From positions 1 through 63,503 of the IMG/VR virus record IMGVR_UViG_3300034965_000044: a DNA stretch of 63,503 nt. One strand, 5' to 3'. Positions 4,747 through 59,640 of this stretch are shown in pieces (the first letter of the stretch is position 1; each line of letters begins with the position of its first letter). Source of the DNA: a virus (Duplodnaviria; Caudoviricetes). A program made the position numbers and the translations under genes. The notes under the pieces were generated by a model that had not been told where the DNA came from, did not search any database, and saw only the letters and a program-made list of their open reading frames with translations.

Positions 4747-5097
4747 TTACGGCAATAGATATACTGCCAGAGGCGTTCCTGCAATGATCATCGTCCAGAT
4801 GCCGAGAATCATGGCACCATGGAATGGATCTTTGTTGCGCCGGTCCCAGATCACATAGCCCACGGCGGACCCCAGCGCGAACGCTGAGATGGTGCCGCAG
4901 AAGAAGAAGAACCCCAGCCACTGCCCATTGAGCGCACACAGCGCCAGCAGGATGATGACCGGCACGCCCATATAGACGAAGGACGCGGCCAGCATGGCGA
5001 GGTGCCGGACCTTGAAACCCGGATGTCCCGCAAAGTGATAGGTGAACAGGAAAACCCCTATTGCAGTCAGGGCACTGAGAATTTTAAGCGTGATCAT
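4747..5097 (-). CDS. Multi-TM membrane protein
   Basis: Four hydrophobic segments; coupled by ATGA to an upstream 23-aa ORF. Confidence 0.7.
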   Translation of the reverse strand: MITLKILSALTAIGVFLFTYHFAGHPGFKVRHLAMLAASFVYMGVPVIILLALCALNGQWLGFFFFCGTISAFALGSAVGYVIWDRRNKDPFHGAMILGIWTMIIAGTPLAVYLLP

Positions 5098-5165
5098 AGG
5101 CCACACTTATCGGCATGGTAGCAAAGCGCGATGACGCCGATCAGCAGAATGATGTTGATAATCAT
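5094..5165 (-). CDS. 23-aa hydrophobic peptide
   Basis: MIINIILLIGVIALCYHADKCGL; GGAGGT SD with the conserved hairpin element upstream. Confidence 0.5.
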   Translation of the reverse strand: MIINIILLIGVIALCYHADKCGL

Positions 5166-5228
5166 AATTTACCTCCATTGGCTCTGAAATGAGCAAAGAC
5201 GGCGAGCCCGAAGGCCCGCCGCTGACAA

Positions 5229-5714
5229 TTAGTGCCGCTTGGGCTTGCGCACATAGCGGTAGTTCTTCTTCATCAGGTCCGCGCCGTGGTAATGCAGACG
5301 GCTCAGAGCCTCGATCACCAGCAGAACGAAGCCGATGGTGACGAGGATGGCGATGCCCTTGGCAGTCTCCGGCCCGGTAACGAGGCCGGCAAGCTTGGTG
5401 ACGCCCTCAGGGGCCGCGTAGGCCGATGAAGCGTGGAAGGTAGCCTCCGCTCCGATCCAGAAGCAGAAGGCCAGCAGAGCCCATTTGGTATGGGCCACAG
5501 GGGCAATTTCATTGATATGGTCCTCGATCCAGGGCAGCACGATATAGCTGAGCGCTGCCGCAATATAGACCATCAGGAAGGCGCCGCCGAACGCCGCCAG
5601 TGTGTAGCTGGCATTGTCGAACAAGATGACGCCTTGCATGATTGCTGTGACTGCGGTTATCACCGCCCCGAGCCAGAATTGGACTCGGGCATCCCATTGA
5701 TGGGGTCGCGGCAT
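5229..5714 (-). CDS. Multi-TM membrane protein
   Basis: GGAGGTG SD; four TM-like segments; basic tail. Confidence 0.75.
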   Translation of the reverse strand: MPRPHQWDARVQFWLGAVITAVTAIMQGVILFDNASYTLAAFGGAFLMVYIAAALSYIVLPWIEDHINEIAPVAHTKWALLAFCFWIGAEATFHASSAYAAPEGVTKLAGLVTGPETAKGIAILVTIGFVLLVIEALSRLHYHGADLMKKNYRYVRKPKRH

Positions 5715-55733: not shown

Positions 55734-56511
55734 CGAGTAGCTTCTCCTTATGGTTGCGTAATATAGTTCTACAATCGCTCAGTAGTTGTGGTTTCCACTG
55801 ATAGAACTCTGGATTGAGCGGGCACATGGCGAGAGCCTGCTCAGGGCTGTCAGCAGCCCCCAGGAAGGCGGTGAGCGCCGAGGCGTCCTCTACAAGCTGC
55901 TGAGCCGCTTCAGTCAGCTCACGTTGGCTGGGGATTAGCCATGCATGCTTCTTCATCGTCACATAGAGGATGCCCGGCTGCACGTCACGCGCTTCCCCAT
56001 CGATCGCCAGCGCCATCATGTCCTTCGGCTGGATCTTCGATGGCAATCTGTGCGTGTATTTGATGTGCAGTTGCACTTGTTCAAAGACGAAGGTCGGCAC
56101 CGACAAAAATGGGGTGCTGAAGTCGCCGATGAACGTGTGGGTTGCAAGTCCGGACGAAATTGGTCTTTCCAGACCCCCTAAATTCTCTTGTAGGGCCTTG
56201 ACTGCCATGTTGAACATGGGTAATATGGCATCCTGTTCGGAACGTGCGCTCGGGTCAGATGGCTTAATCCCGGCGCCTTCGAGACGCCGCTCATAGCTCC
56301 AGAGCGCCGCATCCTCACCTCTCCCGACATCGCCATAATGCAAAGCGGCCTTCATGCCGTCATTCAGCGCGAGCGATCGGGCGAAGGCGGCGCTCCTGAA
56401 ATCGGAGCGGCCGAACAGGTAGCGCATCACCCATAGCGCCGAGTTGTCCCGGAACGCCTGGATGGATGCGGCGGTCAGATAGCGGATGCCTGCTTCTTCG
56501 AATGTGGCCAT
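55612..56511 (-). CDS. PD-(D/E)XK exonuclease-like protein, apparently degenerate active site
   Basis: L.A.SI..F......W...YL.G N-terminus; PFLSVPTF...LHIKYT.RLPS where D...D-x-K is expected; LYVT.KK; P.FY.W. Confidence 0.55.
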   Translation of the reverse strand: MATFEEAGIRYLTAASIQAFRDNSALWVMRYLFGRSDFRSAAFARSLALNDGMKAALHYGDVGRGEDAALWSYERRLEGAGIKPSDPSARSEQDAILPMFNMAVKALQENLGGLERPISSGLATHTFIGDFSTPFLSVPTFVFEQVQLHIKYTHRLPSKIQPKDMMALAIDGEARDVQPGILYVTMKKHAWLIPSQRELTEAAQQLVEDASALTAFLGAADSPEQALAMCPLNPEFYQWKPQLLSDCRTILRNHKEKLLDGSLCPQIGRRFSESPARHPHRNLLPDYRSGDADNDGEVW

Positions 56512-56514
56512 GGT

Positions 56515-56763
56515 CTAACTATAAGCTACACTGGAGTCGGTGTCAACCCCATTGCGCCGCCCCGATAAGACGAACACCAGATCGAAGCCGAGCTTGCTCA
56601 GGCGCTCCAGGGAGGCCGCTGGCGGCTGGTAGCGCCCCACCTCCCAGTTGGAGACGTTCTGCGGGCTTTTGCCGATCGAGGCGGCCAGGACGGCCTGTGT
56701 GAAGCCCAGCCGTTTTCGCTCGATCGCCAGCCGTTCGCCGATTTTTGATTCCATGGGCTCCAT
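56515..56763 (-). CDS. XRE-family HTH transcriptional regulator
   Basis: IGERL..ERKRLGFTQ..LA..IG.S...VSNWE.GR..P. Confidence 0.9.
   Translation of the reverse strand: MEPMESKIGERLAIERKRLGFTQAVLAASIGKSPQNVSNWEVGRYQPPAASLERLSKLGFDLVFVLSGRRNGVDTDSSVAYS
56518..56546 (-). promoter_or_regulatory. sigma70 promoter for the recombination operon
   Basis: TTGACA-17 nt-TATAGT, ending just upstream of the ATG at 56511. Confidence 0.7.
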
Positions 56764-56782
56764 CTTAGCTTATAGTGAACCC

Positions 56783-57331
56783 ATGCTCAAGACATCACAA
56801 CCCCAGCGGCTATGGATGCCAACGCCTCCGTCCGTTAACGAATTGTTCCGCGATGCCGGCTACGGCACAGACAGCAAGACCGGTGGCAGAATACGAAGCC
56901 AGGAATATGGCGCCTGGATCAGCCGAGCCACACAGGAGCTAATGCTCCAGAAGCCGCGCCAGCATGAAGGCAAGGTCACTCTGGACTTCTTCCACGGAAT
57001 GCGCTCCCCATTGGCAGATGCGTCAAATTATCTTAAGGCTAGCGAAGATTTGCTGGTCTCACTTGGTATTTTAGAATCAGACAACGCCAAGGTGGTACAG
57101 CGGGTATCTTCGTGTTGGGTGCCAAATTACATCGGTACTGTTGTTCACATTTTCCCATTTGATGAAAGTGCTCCGCCATATTTGGGTTTCGATTCCGGCG
57201 TTCTTGGACAAGTCGGCGCATCTGCTATTGGCAAATTTATCAAAAGCCCACAAAGCCTCGGCAAAGCCCGCCGGGCGACCACTGGCGCGGCTTGGGCCAG
57301 TGGTGCCGGAGCGAAGAATAAGAAGAAATAG
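56783..57331 (+). CDS. RusA-like Holliday junction resolvase with C-terminal extension
   Basis: PPSVN; D.SNYLKASEDLL..LGILESD...V. Confidence 0.8.
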   Translation: MLKTSQPQRLWMPTPPSVNELFRDAGYGTDSKTGGRIRSQEYGAWISRATQELMLQKPRQHEGKVTLDFFHGMRSPLADASNYLKASEDLLVSLGILESDNAKVVQRVSSCWVPNYIGTVVHIFPFDESAPPYLGFDSGVLGQVGASAIGKFIKSPQSLGKARRATTGAAWASGAGAKNKKK

Positions 57332-57390
57332 AGGTGAGTTGAGACGAGTGAAGCCGAGAGGAAACGAGCCGAATCGAGTCGAGAAGAACC
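57331..57390 (-). repeat. Pentamer array 1 (12 x NN-CTC; GAG-NN on +), candidate guide RNA
   Basis: + strand: gaggt gagtt gagac gagtg aagcc gagag gaaac gagcc gaatc gagtc gagaa gaacc. Confidence 0.9.
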
Positions 57391-57412
57391 GTAAATAAAA
57401 AATAAAATCGCT

Positions 57413-57462
57413 GAGTTGAGCCGAAACGAAGTGAGGTGTGACGAGCTGAGTGGAGCAGAGGC
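57413..57462 (-). repeat. Pentamer array 2 (10 units)
   Basis: + strand: gagtt gagcc gaaac gaagt gaggt gtgac gagct gagtg gagca gaggc. Confidence 0.9.
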
Positions 57463-57464
57463 GT

Positions 57465-58052
57465 TTATTTCCTAGCTATATCAACCAATTCACGATTGTC
57501 TTCCCATTTAATGCTTTCAACAAAAAATCGACCATTTTGACCACCCTTCTCAGGTCTCCAGCGTCCAATGCCGCGAAACTTTCCCGCAACATCCAGATGC
57601 CGGCTAAATACCGGCTCGGTGATCTCTGGATCGAGAATGAGAGCTGAAAACGTCGCAGACCACGGCGCCATGATCGGAAAGCGCCGATAAACTCGCTTAC
57701 CACTGCCGCGAACGCCATCGGCATTCGAATAGATGTCCTCAAAGGTAACATCTGCGGCTTTCACATTGGTTATTCCAGGCTCGATGATGGCCAAGCCGCC
57801 TTCAAAATGCTTTGTCCAAGTCGCCTGACCCTTTTTCTTTTCGCCGAGGTAACGGACGGCGCTGTGCAAGCTCTGCATCAACGCAGTTTCAGGAATGATC
57901 ACTACGCCATCACGAATATGAAGGTGCTCCCTCCAGGTGCGCTTGTCGTAATCCTCTGGGCTTTCGCCACTTTTCTTTGCGGTTTCATGAGCGCGAGACT
58001 GACTGTATACGCCGATGCCGATAATTTTTACGTTTGCGACTGAGGCTTTCAT
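57465..58052 (-). CDS. RAMP/Cas7-like RNA-binding protein associated with the pentamer arrays
   Basis: 195 aa; IP...L...L, YRRFP....W, and a C-terminal Gly-rich loop AG..GIGRWRP.KGG.NGRF.V typical of RAMP proteins; arrays on both sides. Confidence 0.65.
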   Translation of the reverse strand: MKASVANVKIIGIGVYSQSRAHETAKKSGESPEDYDKRTWREHLHIRDGVVIIPETALMQSLHSAVRYLGEKKKGQATWTKHFEGGLAIIEPGITNVKAADVTFEDIYSNADGVRGSGKRVYRRFPIMAPWSATFSALILDPEITEPVFSRHLDVAGKFRGIGRWRPEKGGQNGRFFVESIKWEDNRELVDIARK

Positions 58053-58064
58053 TGTTAATCCATT

Positions 58065-58184
58065 GAGTTGAGTTGAAGAGAGCGGAACCGAGTGGAGTTA
58101 AGGTGAGACGAAGTGAGCGGAGCTGAGTGGAGCGGAGTTAAAGCGAGGCGAGAAAAGCAGAGTCGGGTTGAGATGAGATGAGCG
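58065..58184 (-). repeat. Pentamer array 3 (24 units)
   Basis: Uninterrupted 5-nt period on +: gagtt gagtt gaaga gagcg gaacc gagtg gagtt aaggt gagac gaagt gagcg gagct gagtg gagcg gagtt aaagc gaggc gagaa aagca gagtc gggtt gagat gagat gagcg. Confidence 0.9.
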
Positions 58185-58186
58185 GG

Positions 58187-58585
58187 TTATTCACAAAACT
58201 GTATTGCCAGCCCGAGCTTGTTAAGCTCCTGAGACAACTTGGATCGTTCCTGAGCCGACATATCGCCTTCAAAGGCGCGCACCACACCGACAATCTGTCC
58301 CTGAGCCCTACCAAGACCACGTTGCGCTTTCTGTCGCGCTTTCTGGCCGACGACATCGGCGTCTTTGGGATTGAGCTTTTTCAGGCCGACGCCAATGACA
58401 GTGACAAAAATGCAGCCCTGCTCTTTCTCCACAAGCTTCTTCGCCTGATTGAGTAGGTGAGGCTTGCCCTTCAAGAGGTTGGCCAAGCGCTCCCTTGGAA
58501 TCAATTGCTCAAGTGGCAGCTCGCGCAGGGAATAGGTGAGCGCCCCAAGGATCTTCAGGTTTTCCGGTGTGCTGATGTATGGCAT
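58187..58585 (-). CDS. Basic winged-helix-like protein, first gene of the array operon
   Basis: A.K.VEKE.G.IF.TV.GVGLKKL; AAGG SD. Confidence 0.6.
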   Translation of the reverse strand: MPYISTPENLKILGALTYSLRELPLEQLIPRERLANLLKGKPHLLNQAKKLVEKEQGCIFVTVIGVGLKKLNPKDADVVGQKARQKAQRGLGRAQGQIVGVVRAFEGDMSAQERSKLSQELNKLGLAIQFCE

Positions 58586-58611
58586 TTGACCCTTCCATGT
58601 GGATGTCTGCT

Positions 58612-58640
58612 GATATAAGCGGAACTCACACAATGTCAAG
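58612..58640 (-). promoter_or_regulatory. sigma70-type promoter for the RAMP/array operon
   Basis: CTTGACA-16 nt-TATATC. Confidence 0.6.
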
Positions 58641-58644
58641 TTGG

Positions 58645-59640
58645 TCAGCTCACCAGCCTAACTTTCAACCTAAGGTCGTGATAATGCCAAGCTCCGCTGC
58701 GCTTAACCTTGGTGTATCCCATACCCGTCAAGGTTGTTCCGAACGCAGTTTGGCTTAAAATCGGACGATCGTGCTTTTTTGCCCAGGCGACATAGCTGCG
58801 ATAGAGCATAGACGACTGGGTAAACTGTCCCCGAACCATCTCGCACAACCCGGTCATAAATTCTGTCAAATCATAGGGGTCAGGGATAGTTGGCGGGTTA
58901 CCCGGTATACCCGCCACGGCCTGTTTTAAGGGTTTGGCGGGTTGGACCGATTCAACCCGCCGCAACCCGCCAGACCCGCCACTGAGCAGCGAAAAGATGG
59001 CGATCGGCCCAAGGTCGGCACCCAGTTCCAGGAGGATGGCAAATGCACCGGAAAGCAGGGCTGCCAGGAAGCGTTCATTCAACTTGACGTTGAAGATGGT
59101 TACGGCGAGCGCCGCGATGTTGGCAATGCCAGGATCGACGGCGGAGGGTGCCGGCTCTATACCGGCTCCCCATCCGTCAACCTGCGCTTGCAGTCGCTCG
59201 ATCTGTCTAGCGGTCTCCAGCTTGACCCTCGTCCGGTCCTTCCGATCGCCGCGCGGCATGGCGTCCATCTCGGCCTTCACCACCGCGGCAGACGCCGGGC
59301 CGACCATCTTGCGCAGGTCCGCAACTTGGTCTACGACAGCCTGTCTGTTGTTGGCCTGTCGCTGTTTCTCAGCCCGAATGTCCATGGCCGTATCCCTAAC
59401 CGCCGAGATACCGCTGAGCGAGATGAAGGCGTTCATGGTCATGAAGATCAGCGCCATCGCGCCCCAGCCTATGCGGGCCGTTCCGTGGCTTTCCATGCAG
59501 CGCATGGTGAAGACCGCGGCGAGCGTGGCAAACAACAGTACACCGGCGATCATGTCATTGCCGGCACCCAGGGCAATCTGGGCATTGGCGTTCACCCACG
59601 CAGATGGGATCACGCACAAGATTGCGAGCAGGAATTTCAT
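58645..59640 (-). CDS. Membrane protein with C-terminal winged-helix DNA-binding domain
   Basis: Several TM segments; LYRSY.AW......SQTAFG..L...GY.K, like D5/primase C-terminal wHTH. Confidence 0.65.
   Translation of the reverse strand: MKFLLAILCVIPSAWVNANAQIALGAGNDMIAGVLLFATLAAVFTMRCMESHGTARIGWGAMALIFMTMNAFISLSGISAVRDTAMDIRAEKQRQANNRQAVVDQVADLRKMVGPASAAVVKAEMDAMPRGDRKDRTRVKLETARQIERLQAQVDGWGAGIEPAPSAVDPGIANIAALAVTIFNVKLNERFLAALLSGAFAILLELGADLGPIAIFSLLSGGSGGLRRVESVQPAKPLKQAVAGIPGNPPTIPDPYDLTEFMTGLCEMVRGQFTQSSMLYRSYVAWAKKHDRPILSQTAFGTTLTGMGYTKVKRSGAWHYHDLRLKVRLVS

What the first reader, a model, noticed from the sequence alone, without database searches (positions are those of the whole stretch)
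57185..57390. Array 1 dinucleotides spell a gapped (NN-x) match to the adjacent RusA-like gene
Seen: on the minus strand the variable dinucleotides of array 1 read GG TT GA GA GG GT CT GG CA GT AA AC. The + strand at 57185-57220 reads GGt TTc GAt tcc GGc GTt CTt GGa CAa GTc ggc gca. With one base skipped after each dinucleotide, 9 of the first 10 match (9 of 12 overall, six consecutive). The skipped bases are the codon wobble positions of GFDSGVLGQV. A rough equal-base-frequency estimate is 10 x 16^-9 per site, about 2e-5 for both strands of this genome. Inference: this exposes the recognition code (2 nt read, 1 nt skipped, so insensitive to synonymous change). It points to autoregulation, to targeting of the homologous gene in a competing relative with the mismatches as self-escape, or to intramolecular pairing in a read-through transcript.
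Basis: partly seen in the sequence, partly recalled or inferred. Interest (0 to 1): 0.92.

Follow-up and report, generated by a model that had tools for sequence, protein, structure and literature searches.

The report
VIPR guide RNA matches neighbouring gene
The gapped match is real: array 1 is a guide RNA of a VIPR system (a CRISPR-like phage DNA silencer first described in 2026), and it spells a conserved motif of the neighbouring resolvase-like gene, one codon off from the phage's own copy.

Summary
Observation confirmed. The minus-strand dinucleotides of array 1 match 57185-57220 with one base skipped: 9 of 12 dinucleotides and 19 of 24 bases. The next best site in this 63.5-kb phage genome has 6.

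The locus is a VIPR system. The 195-aa gene between the arrays is a Vipr homologue, the 58187-58585 gene is a vap1 homologue, and three 5-nt arrays flank them.

The last array units (AA, AC) belong to a constant 3' end. The real guide is therefore 10 units, and it matches the phage's own gene at 18 of 20 bases. Read as codons it spells GFD(D/E)GVLGQV, the most conserved motif of the RusA-like protein's tail. Two of ten homologues carry exactly that peptide. The phage's own copy has Ser there.

The closest relative phage shows the same pattern: two of its guides match the neighbouring gene families.

Best reading: kin-directed silencing with partial self-escape. Self-regulation is not excluded. 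The chance probability is about 0.2-0.9% per guide, not 2e-5.

The scan has met VIPR before on other DNA (e1-252907, e1-5867817). This is a new member of a known kind.

The parts
57185..57214 (+). Near-target site: ten codons GFDSGVLGQV of the RusA-like gene. Positions 1-2 of nine codons equal the guide; codon 4 (TCC) mismatches on both bases.
   Evidence: invariant G135 F136 D137 L141 G142 in 7 homologues
57329..57393 (-). vrRNA array 1. Thirteen 5-nt units on the minus strand (TAC-GG, TTC-TT, CTC-GA ... CTC-AA, CTC-AC, CTC-TA). The first ten NN are the guide; the last three units are the constant 3' end.
57411..57460 (-). vrRNA array 2 (10 units, CUC-NN). No convincing target found.
58063..58182 (-). 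vrRNA array 3 (24 units, probably two guides: 58143-58182 and 58063-58137), ending 11 nt before the vipr start codon. No target found.
57465..58052 (-). vipr: 195-aa Cas7-like RAMP protein with a G-rich loop, homologous to SUSP1 Vipr.
   Evidence: E 1e-8; E 7.8e-7; hhalign 95.9%; pLDDT 88.7; Cas7/Csm3 folds, E 5e-7
58187..58585 (-). vap1-like accessory gene. The likely start is the internal ATG at 58585; the ORF is open to 58639.
   Evidence: E 2e-7 to SUSP1 vap1
56783..57331 (+). RusA-like gene, convergent with the vipr operon, with a conserved 55-aa C-terminal tail that holds the matched motif.
   Evidence: (phrog_34, E 6.1e-6)
57266..57304 (.). Two GC-rich inverted repeats (57266-57276; 57278-57286 with 57296-57304) between array 1 and the matched site, inside the RusA-like tail coding region. 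On the minus strand they may be hairpins that end the vipr operon.
   Evidence: not called a terminator by the consensus scan

Best explanation
The window is a complete 63.5-kb phage genome that carries a VIPR system. The parts are a Vipr protein (57465-58052, minus strand), a vap1-like gene (58187-58585, minus strand), and three arrays of 5-nt units transcribed with them on the minus strand. In each unit a constant triplet (CUC here, CGC in most relatives) alternates with two variable bases.

By analogy with the solved SUSP1 system, one Vipr protomer holds each triplet and presents the NN pair. The RNP then reads double-stranded DNA two bases on and one base off, and silences transcription there.

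Array 1 is such a guide. Its ten guide dinucleotides spell codon positions 1-2 of GFD(D/E)GVLGQV. This is the most conserved motif in the tail of the RusA-like protein encoded next to the locus in this phage lineage. The phage's own gene differs at one codon (Ser, TCC), giving 18 of 20 bases. Alleles with Asp or Glu at that codon exist in relatives.

Most likely the guide silences the RusA-like gene of related co-infecting or resident phages, while the phage's own copy is partly protected by the double mismatch.

Shown: the match, its rarity, the homologies, the array polarity, and the allele peptides.
Inferred: the RNA strand, RNP formation, binding, and the direction of the conflict.
For: Locus identity:
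- Vipr versus SUSP1 Vipr: E 1e-8 pairwise, profile versus PDB 36pp_D E 7.8e-7, hhalign 95.9%.
- AF2 model pLDDT 88.7, with Cas7/Csm3-type folds at E 5e-7.
- vap1 homology E 2e-7.

Code:
- The 1-nt-skip rule and wobble alignment are published.
- Only gap 1 gives the outlier here.

Strand and guide limits:
- In about 100 related loci, 413 arrays lie on the vipr-sense strand and 12 on the antisense strand. 286 period-5 regions have a C scaffold and 7 a G scaffold.
- In SUSP1 the arrays are also vipr-sense.
- Arrays are polar. The last NN is AA in 67% of arrays, against 10% for interior units, while the 5' end is variable (294 unique arrays).

Rarity:
- 0 of 6000 shuffles reach 9 dinucleotides, and 11 of 6000 reach 18 bases.

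Target motif:
- G135 F136 D137 L141 G142 are invariant in 7 homologues.
- Codon-compatibility test against 10 tail-bearing homologues: 20/20 for P0005 (GFDDGVLGQV) and P0007 (GFDEGVLGQV), 18 for the phage's own gene, and 0 of 3000 shuffles reach 20.

Independent parallels in the closest relative, L004 (79% Vipr identity):
- Its last array fits the RusA-like N-terminal motif at 22/26 (0 of 3000 shuffles) but only 19/30 on its own DNA. Three of those mismatches are at Leu and Arg codons of the other synonymous family.
- Its upstream array fits the vap family at 20/26 (0 of 3000). It matches this window's vap gene at 17/18 in frame, against 15/18 for its own.
- The other 21 guide-by-family combinations are unremarkable, with at least 752 of 3000 shuffles reaching the observed score.

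Precedent:
- vrRNAs aimed at rivals' VIPR loci, with lower self-match, are described for SUSP1-type phages.
Against: - The 20/20 figure is a best case from peptides, with the Leu codon family unknown.
- Discrimination between self and rival is small: 18 against 19-20 of 20. Published natural targets average 89.2% of read bases, so the phage's own site may well be bound.
- The only sequenced close relative (L004) fits array 1 worse than self does: 13/20 best case, 6 of 10 dinucleotides by eye.
- That the guide's GA at unit 4 coincides with some homologue's residue has roughly a 1 in 4 chance.
- Across the clade there is no general signal. In an all-against-all scan of 293 guides over 1.2 Mb, skip 1 gave 26 hits at 16/18 and 4 at 17/18, against 20-26 and 1-2 for shuffled guides.
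- Near-self matches within 1.5 kb are not enriched among 238 guides: 3.8% at p<=0.05. With that 9-unit metric, array 1 scores 10 of 20000, which does not survive correction for 238 guides.
- Neither the RNA strand nor expression is shown; no RNA run was listed.
- The match was picked post hoc by a reader.
Confidence: 0.55

Rival explanations
1. Self-regulation. The Vipr-vrRNA1 complex binds the phage's own RusA-like gene at 57185-57214 despite the one-codon mismatch. There it blocks RNA polymerase near the 3' end of that gene. This would lower RusA-like expression and stop convergent transcription from running antisense through the vrRNA arrays.
For: - The self-match of the 10-unit guide is 90%. 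That is above the 80% cut-off used in the preprints and equals the 89.2% average of accepted natural targets.
- The site lies 109 nt from the array, on a gene convergent with the vipr operon.
- Four other loci of the clade have in-frame, imperfect matches of a guide to a gene of its own locus: two in L004, L032 to its own vipr at 16/18, and L090 to the first nine codons of the downstream gene at 16/18.
Against: - A guide kept for self-regulation should match perfectly. Here a whole unit is mismatched in the middle. In L004 the equivalent self-match is only 19/30.
- The two phages hit different sites of the RusA-like gene, which fits an arms race better than a conserved operator.
- The preprint found no self-hits at >=80% in its sets.
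- Near-self matches are not enriched over 238 guides.
Confidence: 0.27
2. Coincidence. Array 1 is a VIPR guide with an unknown target elsewhere, and the match to the neighbouring gene is a chance hit picked out by a reader who tried many patterns.
For: - The per-guide probability is only 0.2-0.9% at base level, about 0.7-3.5% for four guides.
- 16/18 windows are common in 1.2 Mb of related loci, for real and shuffled guides alike.
- The clade-wide near-self test is flat.
- A 20-of-20 hit of array 2 in an unrelated AT-rich virus shows that chance hits occur in large collections.
Against: - The hit is in frame, on the most conserved motif of the tail.
- The single mismatched unit is repaired by alleles that exist.
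- Two further guides of the closest relative independently fit the gene families they sit next to, each at 0 of 3000 shuffles, while 21 control combinations do not.
Confidence: 0.13
3. RNA-RNA pairing. In a read-through RusA-like transcript, or in the minus-strand RNA, the array pairs with the 57185-57220 stretch and forms a regulatory structure.
For: The minimum-free-energy folds of 57180-57400 do pair parts of the two regions, including a 7-nt complement, on both strands.
Against: - The folds are no better than shuffles: z -1.39 with 18 of 200 shuffles as good, and z -1.29 with 22 of 200.
- 2-bp steps separated by 1x3 asymmetric loops make no stable helix without protein (established RNA energetics).
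- The pattern is explained by the protein-held VIPR geometry.
Confidence: 0.02

Closest known systems
Type II VIPR system of Escherichia phage SUSP1 (vipr, vap1, four vrRNAs; bioRxiv 10.64898/2026.04.26.720920 and 10.64898/2026.04.26.720927; PDB 36pp)
   Same: - A small Cas7-like Vipr protein with a G-rich loop, and a vap1-type accessory gene.
- 5-nt repeat arrays of about 10-15 units on the vipr strand, both upstream and downstream of the genes.
- A 1-nt-skip, wobble-aligned relation between the NN pairs and a coding target.
   Different: - The constant triplet is CUC (CGC in most of the clade), not GGY.
- The residues that hold G1 and G2 in SUSP1 (D177, R138) are R164 and F125 here. W178 and R179 are kept.
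- The gene order is vap-array-vipr-arrays.
- No pseudoknot tail was found; instead there is a constant ...AA-...AA-CG 3' end.
- Nothing here has been tested experimentally.
vipr- and vrRNA-targeting vrRNAs of SUSP1-family phages, and VIPR-targeting vrRNAs of Pseudomonas fulva prophages (bioRxiv 10.64898/2026.10.15.759431, section 8; 10.64898/2026.04.26.720920, Results)
   Same: - Guides aimed at genes of rivals' VIPR loci.
- Wobble-aligned targets.
- A self-match lower than the match to rivals.
   Different: - Here the matched genes are the RusA-like neighbour and vap1, not vipr or the vrRNA-tail junction.
- The self-match is as high as 90%.
- The better-matching rival allele is known only as protein.
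Non-canonical VIPR arrays (GAC/NN, CAC/NN, WGT/NN, TGH/NN; bioRxiv 10.64898/2026.10.21.760802), and the NNNGG, YNNNG, NNNNG repeats named in 10.64898/2026.04.26.720920 Methods
   Same: A period-5 array beside a Vipr-like fold, with a fixed triplet other than GGY. CGC-NN read as C-NN-CG fits YNNNG.
   Different: CUC/NN and CGC/NN are not named in the passages I saw. The supplementary figures that list the motifs could not be opened.
Cas7 backbone of class 1 CRISPR effectors (Csm3, Cmr4, type VII Cas7)
   Same: - The fold (Foldseek E 5e-7, TM 0.5-0.57).
- One protomer per RNA repeat, with periodic base flipping.
   Different: - No CRISPR array and no other cas genes.
- Period 5 on the RNA against 3 on the DNA, rather than 6 and 6.
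- The guide is non-contiguous.

Membership tests
VIPR system | Vipr protein: a minimal RAMP (RRM core, G-rich loop, thumb) homologous to described Viprs | tested here: met
   - phmmer versus PDB 36pp_D, E 4.7e-4
- BLASTP versus SUSP1 Vipr, E 1e-8 over 69 aa
- Profile versus PDB, E 7.8e-7
- hhalign 95.9%
- AF2 pLDDT 88.7 with Cas7-type fold hits
Sequence homology covers only the C-terminal third. The solved Vipr structure was not in the fold library.
VIPR system | vap accessory gene beside vipr | tested here: met
   58187-58585 versus SUSP1 vap1: E 2e-7, 31% identity over 85 aa.
VIPR system | Tandem 5-nt units (fixed triplet plus variable NN) in the intergenic regions flanking vipr, on its strand | tested here: met
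   Three arrays are the only period-5 GAG arrays in the window. The same architecture appears in about 100 related loci, with 413 sense and 12 antisense arrays.
VIPR system | Canonical GGY fixed triplet, and the residues that read it (H17, D177, R138, W178, R179 in SUSP1) | tested here: not met
   The triplet is CUC/CGC on the vipr strand. D177 aligns with R164 and R138 with F125, while W178 and R179 are kept. Non-canonical triplets are reported for other VIPR clades, so this marks a variant rather than exclusion.
VIPR system | Variable repeat tract followed by an invariant, structured 3' tail | tested here: inconclusive
   There is a constant 3' end (AA units, then CGA/CGT) in 294 unique arrays, and short hairpins follow arrays in L001. 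No conserved tail or pseudoknot was found in the window. The fold of 57180-57400 is not significant.
VIPR system | Targets obey the 1-nt-skip rule, with skips on wobble positions | tested here: met
   In silico only. Gap 1 alone gives the outlier. Codon phase is 0 in all three significant guide-gene pairs. Family tests give 0 of 3000 shuffles. There is no enrichment of skip 1 in the all-against-all scan of flanks.
VIPR system | vrRNAs are expressed and co-purify with Vipr; the RNP binds DNA and represses | not testable with these tools
   No sequencing run was listed for this DNA.
RusA Holliday-junction resolvase family | Sequence membership of the 56783-57331 product | tested here: inconclusive
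   - phrog_34 'RusA-like', E 6.1e-6, over residues 9-115
- No Pfam family at E<=0.1
- Profile search finds 2296 proteins at E<=0.001, of which only a handful carry the tail
- Catalytic residues were not examined.
TRAP-type (G/U)AG-repeat RNA binding site (considered early) | GAG/UAG triplets spaced by 2-3 nt, bound by an 11-mer TRAP protein encoded in the genome | tested here: not met
   GAG-NN is on the strand opposite to the operon. The adjacent protein is a Vipr/Cas7-like RAMP, not TRAP. The TRAP motif itself is recalled, not taken from a call.

The most novel reading that the evidence does not exclude
In this lineage of Vipr systems, guides are systematically aimed at the genes of the VIPR locus itself as rivals carry them (RusA-like, vap1, vipr). 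The locus would then act as a kin-discrimination or superinfection-exclusion module.

The phage would protect its own copies by single-codon changes, including switches between the two synonymous codon families of Leu and Arg. That is the one kind of silent change a wobble-blind code can see.

The change of fixed triplet from GGY to C(G/U)C goes with D177R and R138F swaps. This would show that the scaffold-reading pocket of Vipr is itself re-programmable.
Probability: 0.3. Interest if true: 0.65.

Novelty: new member of a known kind. Interest (0 to 1): 0.42.

Why it matters
- It shows that a reader working from sequence alone recovered the VIPR recognition code from a single phage genome.
- It extends VIPR to a clade with a pyrimidine-type fixed triplet. 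About 100 loci were found here, mostly from environmental contigs with alphaproteobacterial MAG relatives.
- It offers a compact natural test case for two open questions in the preprints: how many mismatches a VIPR guide tolerates, and how a phage avoids silencing its own copy of a gene it attacks in relatives. The native site (one double mismatch) and the Asp/Glu allele (none) differ by a single codon.
- It also suggests that escape from a wobble-blind code can use six-fold degenerate codons.

Tried and rejected
- TRAP-like GAG-repeat RNA site or DNA iterons (my first idea). Dropped once the adjacent protein matched Vipr.
- Rfam scan of 56500-58800. Nothing near threshold.
- Phage collection. 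No DNA match and no protein match.
- Consensus promoter and terminator scan. 3 promoter-like sites against 1.5 expected, and 0 terminators. Not informative on strand.
- RNA runs. No RNA holder listed.
- Hunt for a 12/12 or 10/10 target.
  - The relaxed guide pattern in IMG/VR gave 1 hit (L107), an unrelated gene and within chance expectation.
  - RusA-like loci in IMG/VR: 6 found, and only L004's contig has the motif.
  - RusA-like protein in 401 genomes of the order of G001: 2 distant hits without the tail.
  - In 401 genomes of the order of G002: none at E<=1e-15.
- Arrays 2 and 3.
  - No hit with <=3 mismatches in the relative's genome G404.
  - Array 3b has no exact hit in IMG/VR.
  - Array 2 has 2 exact 20-base hits, which are one AT-rich virus (98.7% alike), on the antisense strand of a primase-like gene and not wobble-aligned. 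Judged chance.
- All-against-all scan and near-self scan. No general enrichment.
- Covariation between the middle base of the triplet and the residue at SUSP1 W178. W occurs in 2 of 4 T-dominant loci and 2 of 47 G-dominant loci. The count is too thin, and the parser mis-registered 34 loci.
- L003 was left out of the alignments because its vipr is frameshifted. L022 was left out because of a stop codon.
- Supplementary files of the preprints were not opened. Figs S10, S15 and S17 and data S3 and S4 may already list this clade, its motif or such targets.
Full report
OBSERVATION

The + strand from 57331 to 57390 is twelve 5-nt units of the form GAG-NN (with AAG and GAA variants).

I scanned both strands of the window with these pairs, one free base after each. 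The site at 57185 (+) has 9 of 12 pairs and 19 of 24 bases. No other site exceeds 6 pairs.

The skipped bases are the third positions of codons GFDSGVLGQVGA of the 56783-57331 ORF, at phase 0.

Gaps of 0, 2 and 4-7 give at most 7 pairs. Gap 3 finds only the array itself.

I permuted the order of the pairs 6000 times:
- For the 12-unit guide, 9 pairs was reached 4 times and 19 bases 52 times.
- For the first ten units, 9 pairs was reached 0 times and 18 bases 11 times.

WHAT THE LOCUS IS

The window is the whole genome, one contig of 63,503 bases, a virus record.

The three GAG-NN arrays (57331-57390, 57411-57460, 58063-58182) are the only such arrays in it. They fill the gaps around a 195-aa gene on the minus strand.

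That protein has no Pfam family, but several lines identify it:
- It matches the PDB chain 'SUSP1 Vipr protein'.
- Pairwise against the SUSP1 gene product it gives E 1e-8.
- A 4-sequence profile gives E 7.8e-7, and a 25-sequence profile gives hhalign probability 95.9%.
- An AlphaFold2 model (pLDDT 88.7) finds Cas7-type RAMPs (type VII Cas7, Csm3, Cmr4) at Foldseek E about 5e-7 and TM 0.5-0.57.

The upstream 58187-58585 gene is homologous to SUSP1 vap1 (E 2e-7).

WHAT THE LITERATURE SAYS

VIPR systems are described in four 2026 bioRxiv preprints.

- 10.64898/2026.04.26.720920. I read the abstract, all of the Results, Methods sections 20, 26 and 27, and found passages.
- 10.64898/2026.04.26.720927. 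I read the abstract and all of the Results.
- 10.64898/2026.10.15.759431. I read the abstract, sections 8 and 17, and found passages.
- 10.64898/2026.10.21.760802. I read found passages only.

They report the following:
- Vipr protomers each hold a fixed GGY triplet of a vrRNA and present the next two bases.
- The RNP reads dsDNA two bases on and one off.
- The skipped base usually falls on the wobble position.
- Binding silences transcription.
- Natural targets are competing mobile elements, including rivals' VIPR loci.

WHICH STRAND IS THE RNA, AND WHAT IS THE GUIDE

In SUSP1 the GGY-NN arrays lie on the vipr strand (from NC_028808.2).

I fetched about 100 loci encoding relatives of this Vipr. 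The results were:
- 307 period-5 regions in 105 loci (L006 duplicates L004's contig). Of these, 286 have a C-type fixed triplet on the vipr strand, 7 have a G-type, and 14 have neither.
- A stricter caller found 413 arrays on the vipr strand and 12 on the other (SUSP1 and L006 dropped).
- The triplet is C-x-C, with x = G 3381, T 1495, A 481 and C 141 times.

The arrays are polar. In 294 unique arrays the last, second-last and third-last NN are AA in 67%, 62% and 40%, against 10% for interior units. The first units are variable. The 3' flank usually starts with CGA or CGT.

A variable tract with a constant 3' end on the gene's strand is the published vrRNA layout. So I take the RNA to be the minus strand here, with units CUC-NN. 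This is an inference; no RNA data exist.

It follows that the AA, AC (and TA) units at the end of array 1 are the constant end. The guide is the first ten pairs, which match the phage's own gene at 9 of 10 pairs and 18 of 20 bases.

The residues that read G1 and G2 in SUSP1 (D177, R138) align with R164 and F125, which are nearly invariant in this clade. W178 and R179 are kept. This is consistent with a changed triplet.

CGC-NN read as C-NN-CG fits the 'YNNNG' repeats named in the first preprint's Methods. Non-canonical triplets such as CAC/NN are reported in the fourth preprint.

WHAT THE GUIDE SPELLS

The RusA-like ORF (phrog_34, E 6.1e-6) has a 55-aa tail beyond the RusA region. I collected homologues with this tail:
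- six in a 5.8-billion-protein search, one of them the window's own product;
- four cluster representatives in the 1.8-billion library, one of which (P0004) was already in the first set;
- the L004 copy.

In the 7-sequence alignment G135, F136, D137, L141 and G142 are invariant. The guide therefore sits on the most conserved motif of the tail.

Read as codons, the guide is G-F-D-(D/E)-G-V-L-G-Q-V.

The phage's own gene has Ser (TCC) at the fourth codon. The other homologues have F, D, A, A, D, A, E, A and K there.

I ran a test that scores each guide against each protein by the best codon-compatible bases:
- 20/20 for P0005 (GFDDGVLGQV) and P0007 (GFDEGVLGQV);
- 19 for three others;
- 18 for the phage's own gene;
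- 13 for L004;
- 0 of 3000 shuffled guides reach 20.

PARALLELS IN THE CLOSEST RELATIVE

L004 is a 63.8-kb IMG/VR virus with 79% Vipr identity and the same gene order.

Its last array, next to its RusA-like gene, fits the family's N-terminal motif (NxLFRNxxxGDRR) at 22/26 (0 of 3000 shuffles). On its own DNA it matches only 19 of 30. Three of those mismatches fall at Leu and Arg codons of the other synonymous family.

Its upstream array, next to vap, fits the vap family at 20/26 (0 of 3000). It matches this window's vap gene at 17 of 18 over nine codons, in frame (VGQKARQKA), against 15 of 18 for its own. This is one of very few hits at 17/18 or better in the 1.2-Mb all-against-all scan. The rest come from L029, one of whose two arrays is a poly-C tract, and from a 30-unit array in L090.

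The other 21 guide-by-family combinations (eight guides against the RusA-like, vap and vipr families) are unremarkable, with at least 752 of 3000 shuffles reaching the observed score.

Two more loci show an in-frame 16/18 match of a guide to a gene of its own locus: L032 to vipr, and L090 to the start of the downstream gene.

WHAT SPEAKS AGAINST

The Leu codon family, and hence 19 versus 20, is unknown.
- The margin between self (18) and rival (19-20) is one codon. Accepted natural targets in the third preprint average 89.2%. The phage's own site may therefore be bound, and self-regulation is a live rival.
- The one sequenced close relative is a poorer match than self.
- Across the clade, skip 1 is not enriched over skips 0, 2 and 3 or over shuffled guides in the flanks.
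- Near-self matches are not enriched among 238 guides: 3.8% at p<=0.05 and 1.7% at p<=0.01.
- With that scan's 9-unit metric, array 1 scores 10 of 20000. That is not significant after correction for 238 guides.
- Arrays 2 and 3 have no convincing target.

MECHANISM AND ODDS

I put about 85% on the match being a real guide-target relation under the VIPR code.

Within that, the split is as follows:
- About 55% overall: the intended targets are rivals' RusA-like alleles, with the phage's own copy partly protected.
- About 27% overall: the phage's own site is a functional operator that blocks the convergent RusA-like transcript.

The two are not exclusive. Chance gets about 13%, and RNA-RNA pairing about 2%; the folds of both strands are not better than shuffles.

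NOVELTY

The system, the code, non-GGY triplets and kin-directed guides are all in print.

In the main text of the first preprint 'RusA', 'GAG' and 'resolvase' do not occur. My two library searches found only those four papers. Supplements were closed, so the clade may be listed there.

The scan has also met VIPR before, including a guide that spells the end of a neighbouring gene as rival phages carry it (e1-5867817). That is an unchecked note, and I did not test it.

I file this as a new member of a known kind. It has a useful natural one-codon contrast for testing mismatch tolerance.

Noticed in passing
L004:2083-2177 (minus strand of the locus): The closest relative has a fourth array of 17-19 CTC-NN units in the opposite orientation to vipr. 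It ends 10 nt before the start codon of a 210-aa gene with no PHROG family. The window has no equivalent array. No target was found.
   Followed up: partly
L032:957-1081 and L032:609-635: A guide directly downstream of vipr matches the locus's own vipr gene at 16 of 18 bases, in frame, on the conserved TAKFTAG motif (10 of 20000 shuffles).
   Followed up: partly
L090:759-888 and L090:912-938: Part of a 26-unit array matches the first nine codons (MTKAFELSK) of the gene immediately downstream at 16 of 18 bases.
   Followed up: partly
L117:2163-2191 and L118:4405-4433: The ten dinucleotides of window array 2 match exactly (20 of 20) in one AT-rich IMG/VR virus, seen as two contigs 98.7% alike. 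The site is on the antisense strand of an 829-aa primase/helicase-like gene, with skips on codon position 1. Probably chance.
   Followed up: partly
L003:3419-4560: The vipr homologue of the Methylobrevis pamukkalensis contig is split over two frames, by a frameshift or an assembly error.
   Followed up: no
window 58585-58639: The vap1-like ORF is open for 18 codons upstream of the ATG at 58585. Four homologues of 132-133 aa all begin at the position of that internal Met, so the shorter gene is likelier.
   Followed up: partly
window 57266-57304: Two GC-rich inverted repeats, one a perfect 9-bp stem, lie inside the conserved coding tail of the RusA-like gene, between array 1 and the matched site. 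They may end the minus-strand vipr operon.
   Followed up: partly
L021 (arrays around 4870-5698): One locus uses CAC-NN units almost exclusively (A 50 of 55 middle bases). It has Gln instead of Arg at the position aligned with SUSP1 D177.
   Followed up: no
window 56518-56546 (minus strand): A near-consensus promoter, TTGACA-17-TATAGT (11 of 12), sits inside the 3' end of the HTH regulator gene and points into the 55612-56511 gene.
   Followed up: no
L001:4600-5210: In the Hyphomicrobiales MAG locus at least seven CGC-NN arrays follow vipr in one intergenic stretch. Most are followed by a short GC hairpin, one with a UUCG loop and a U run, and the stretch ends at the ribosome-binding site of the next gene.
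   Followed up: partly
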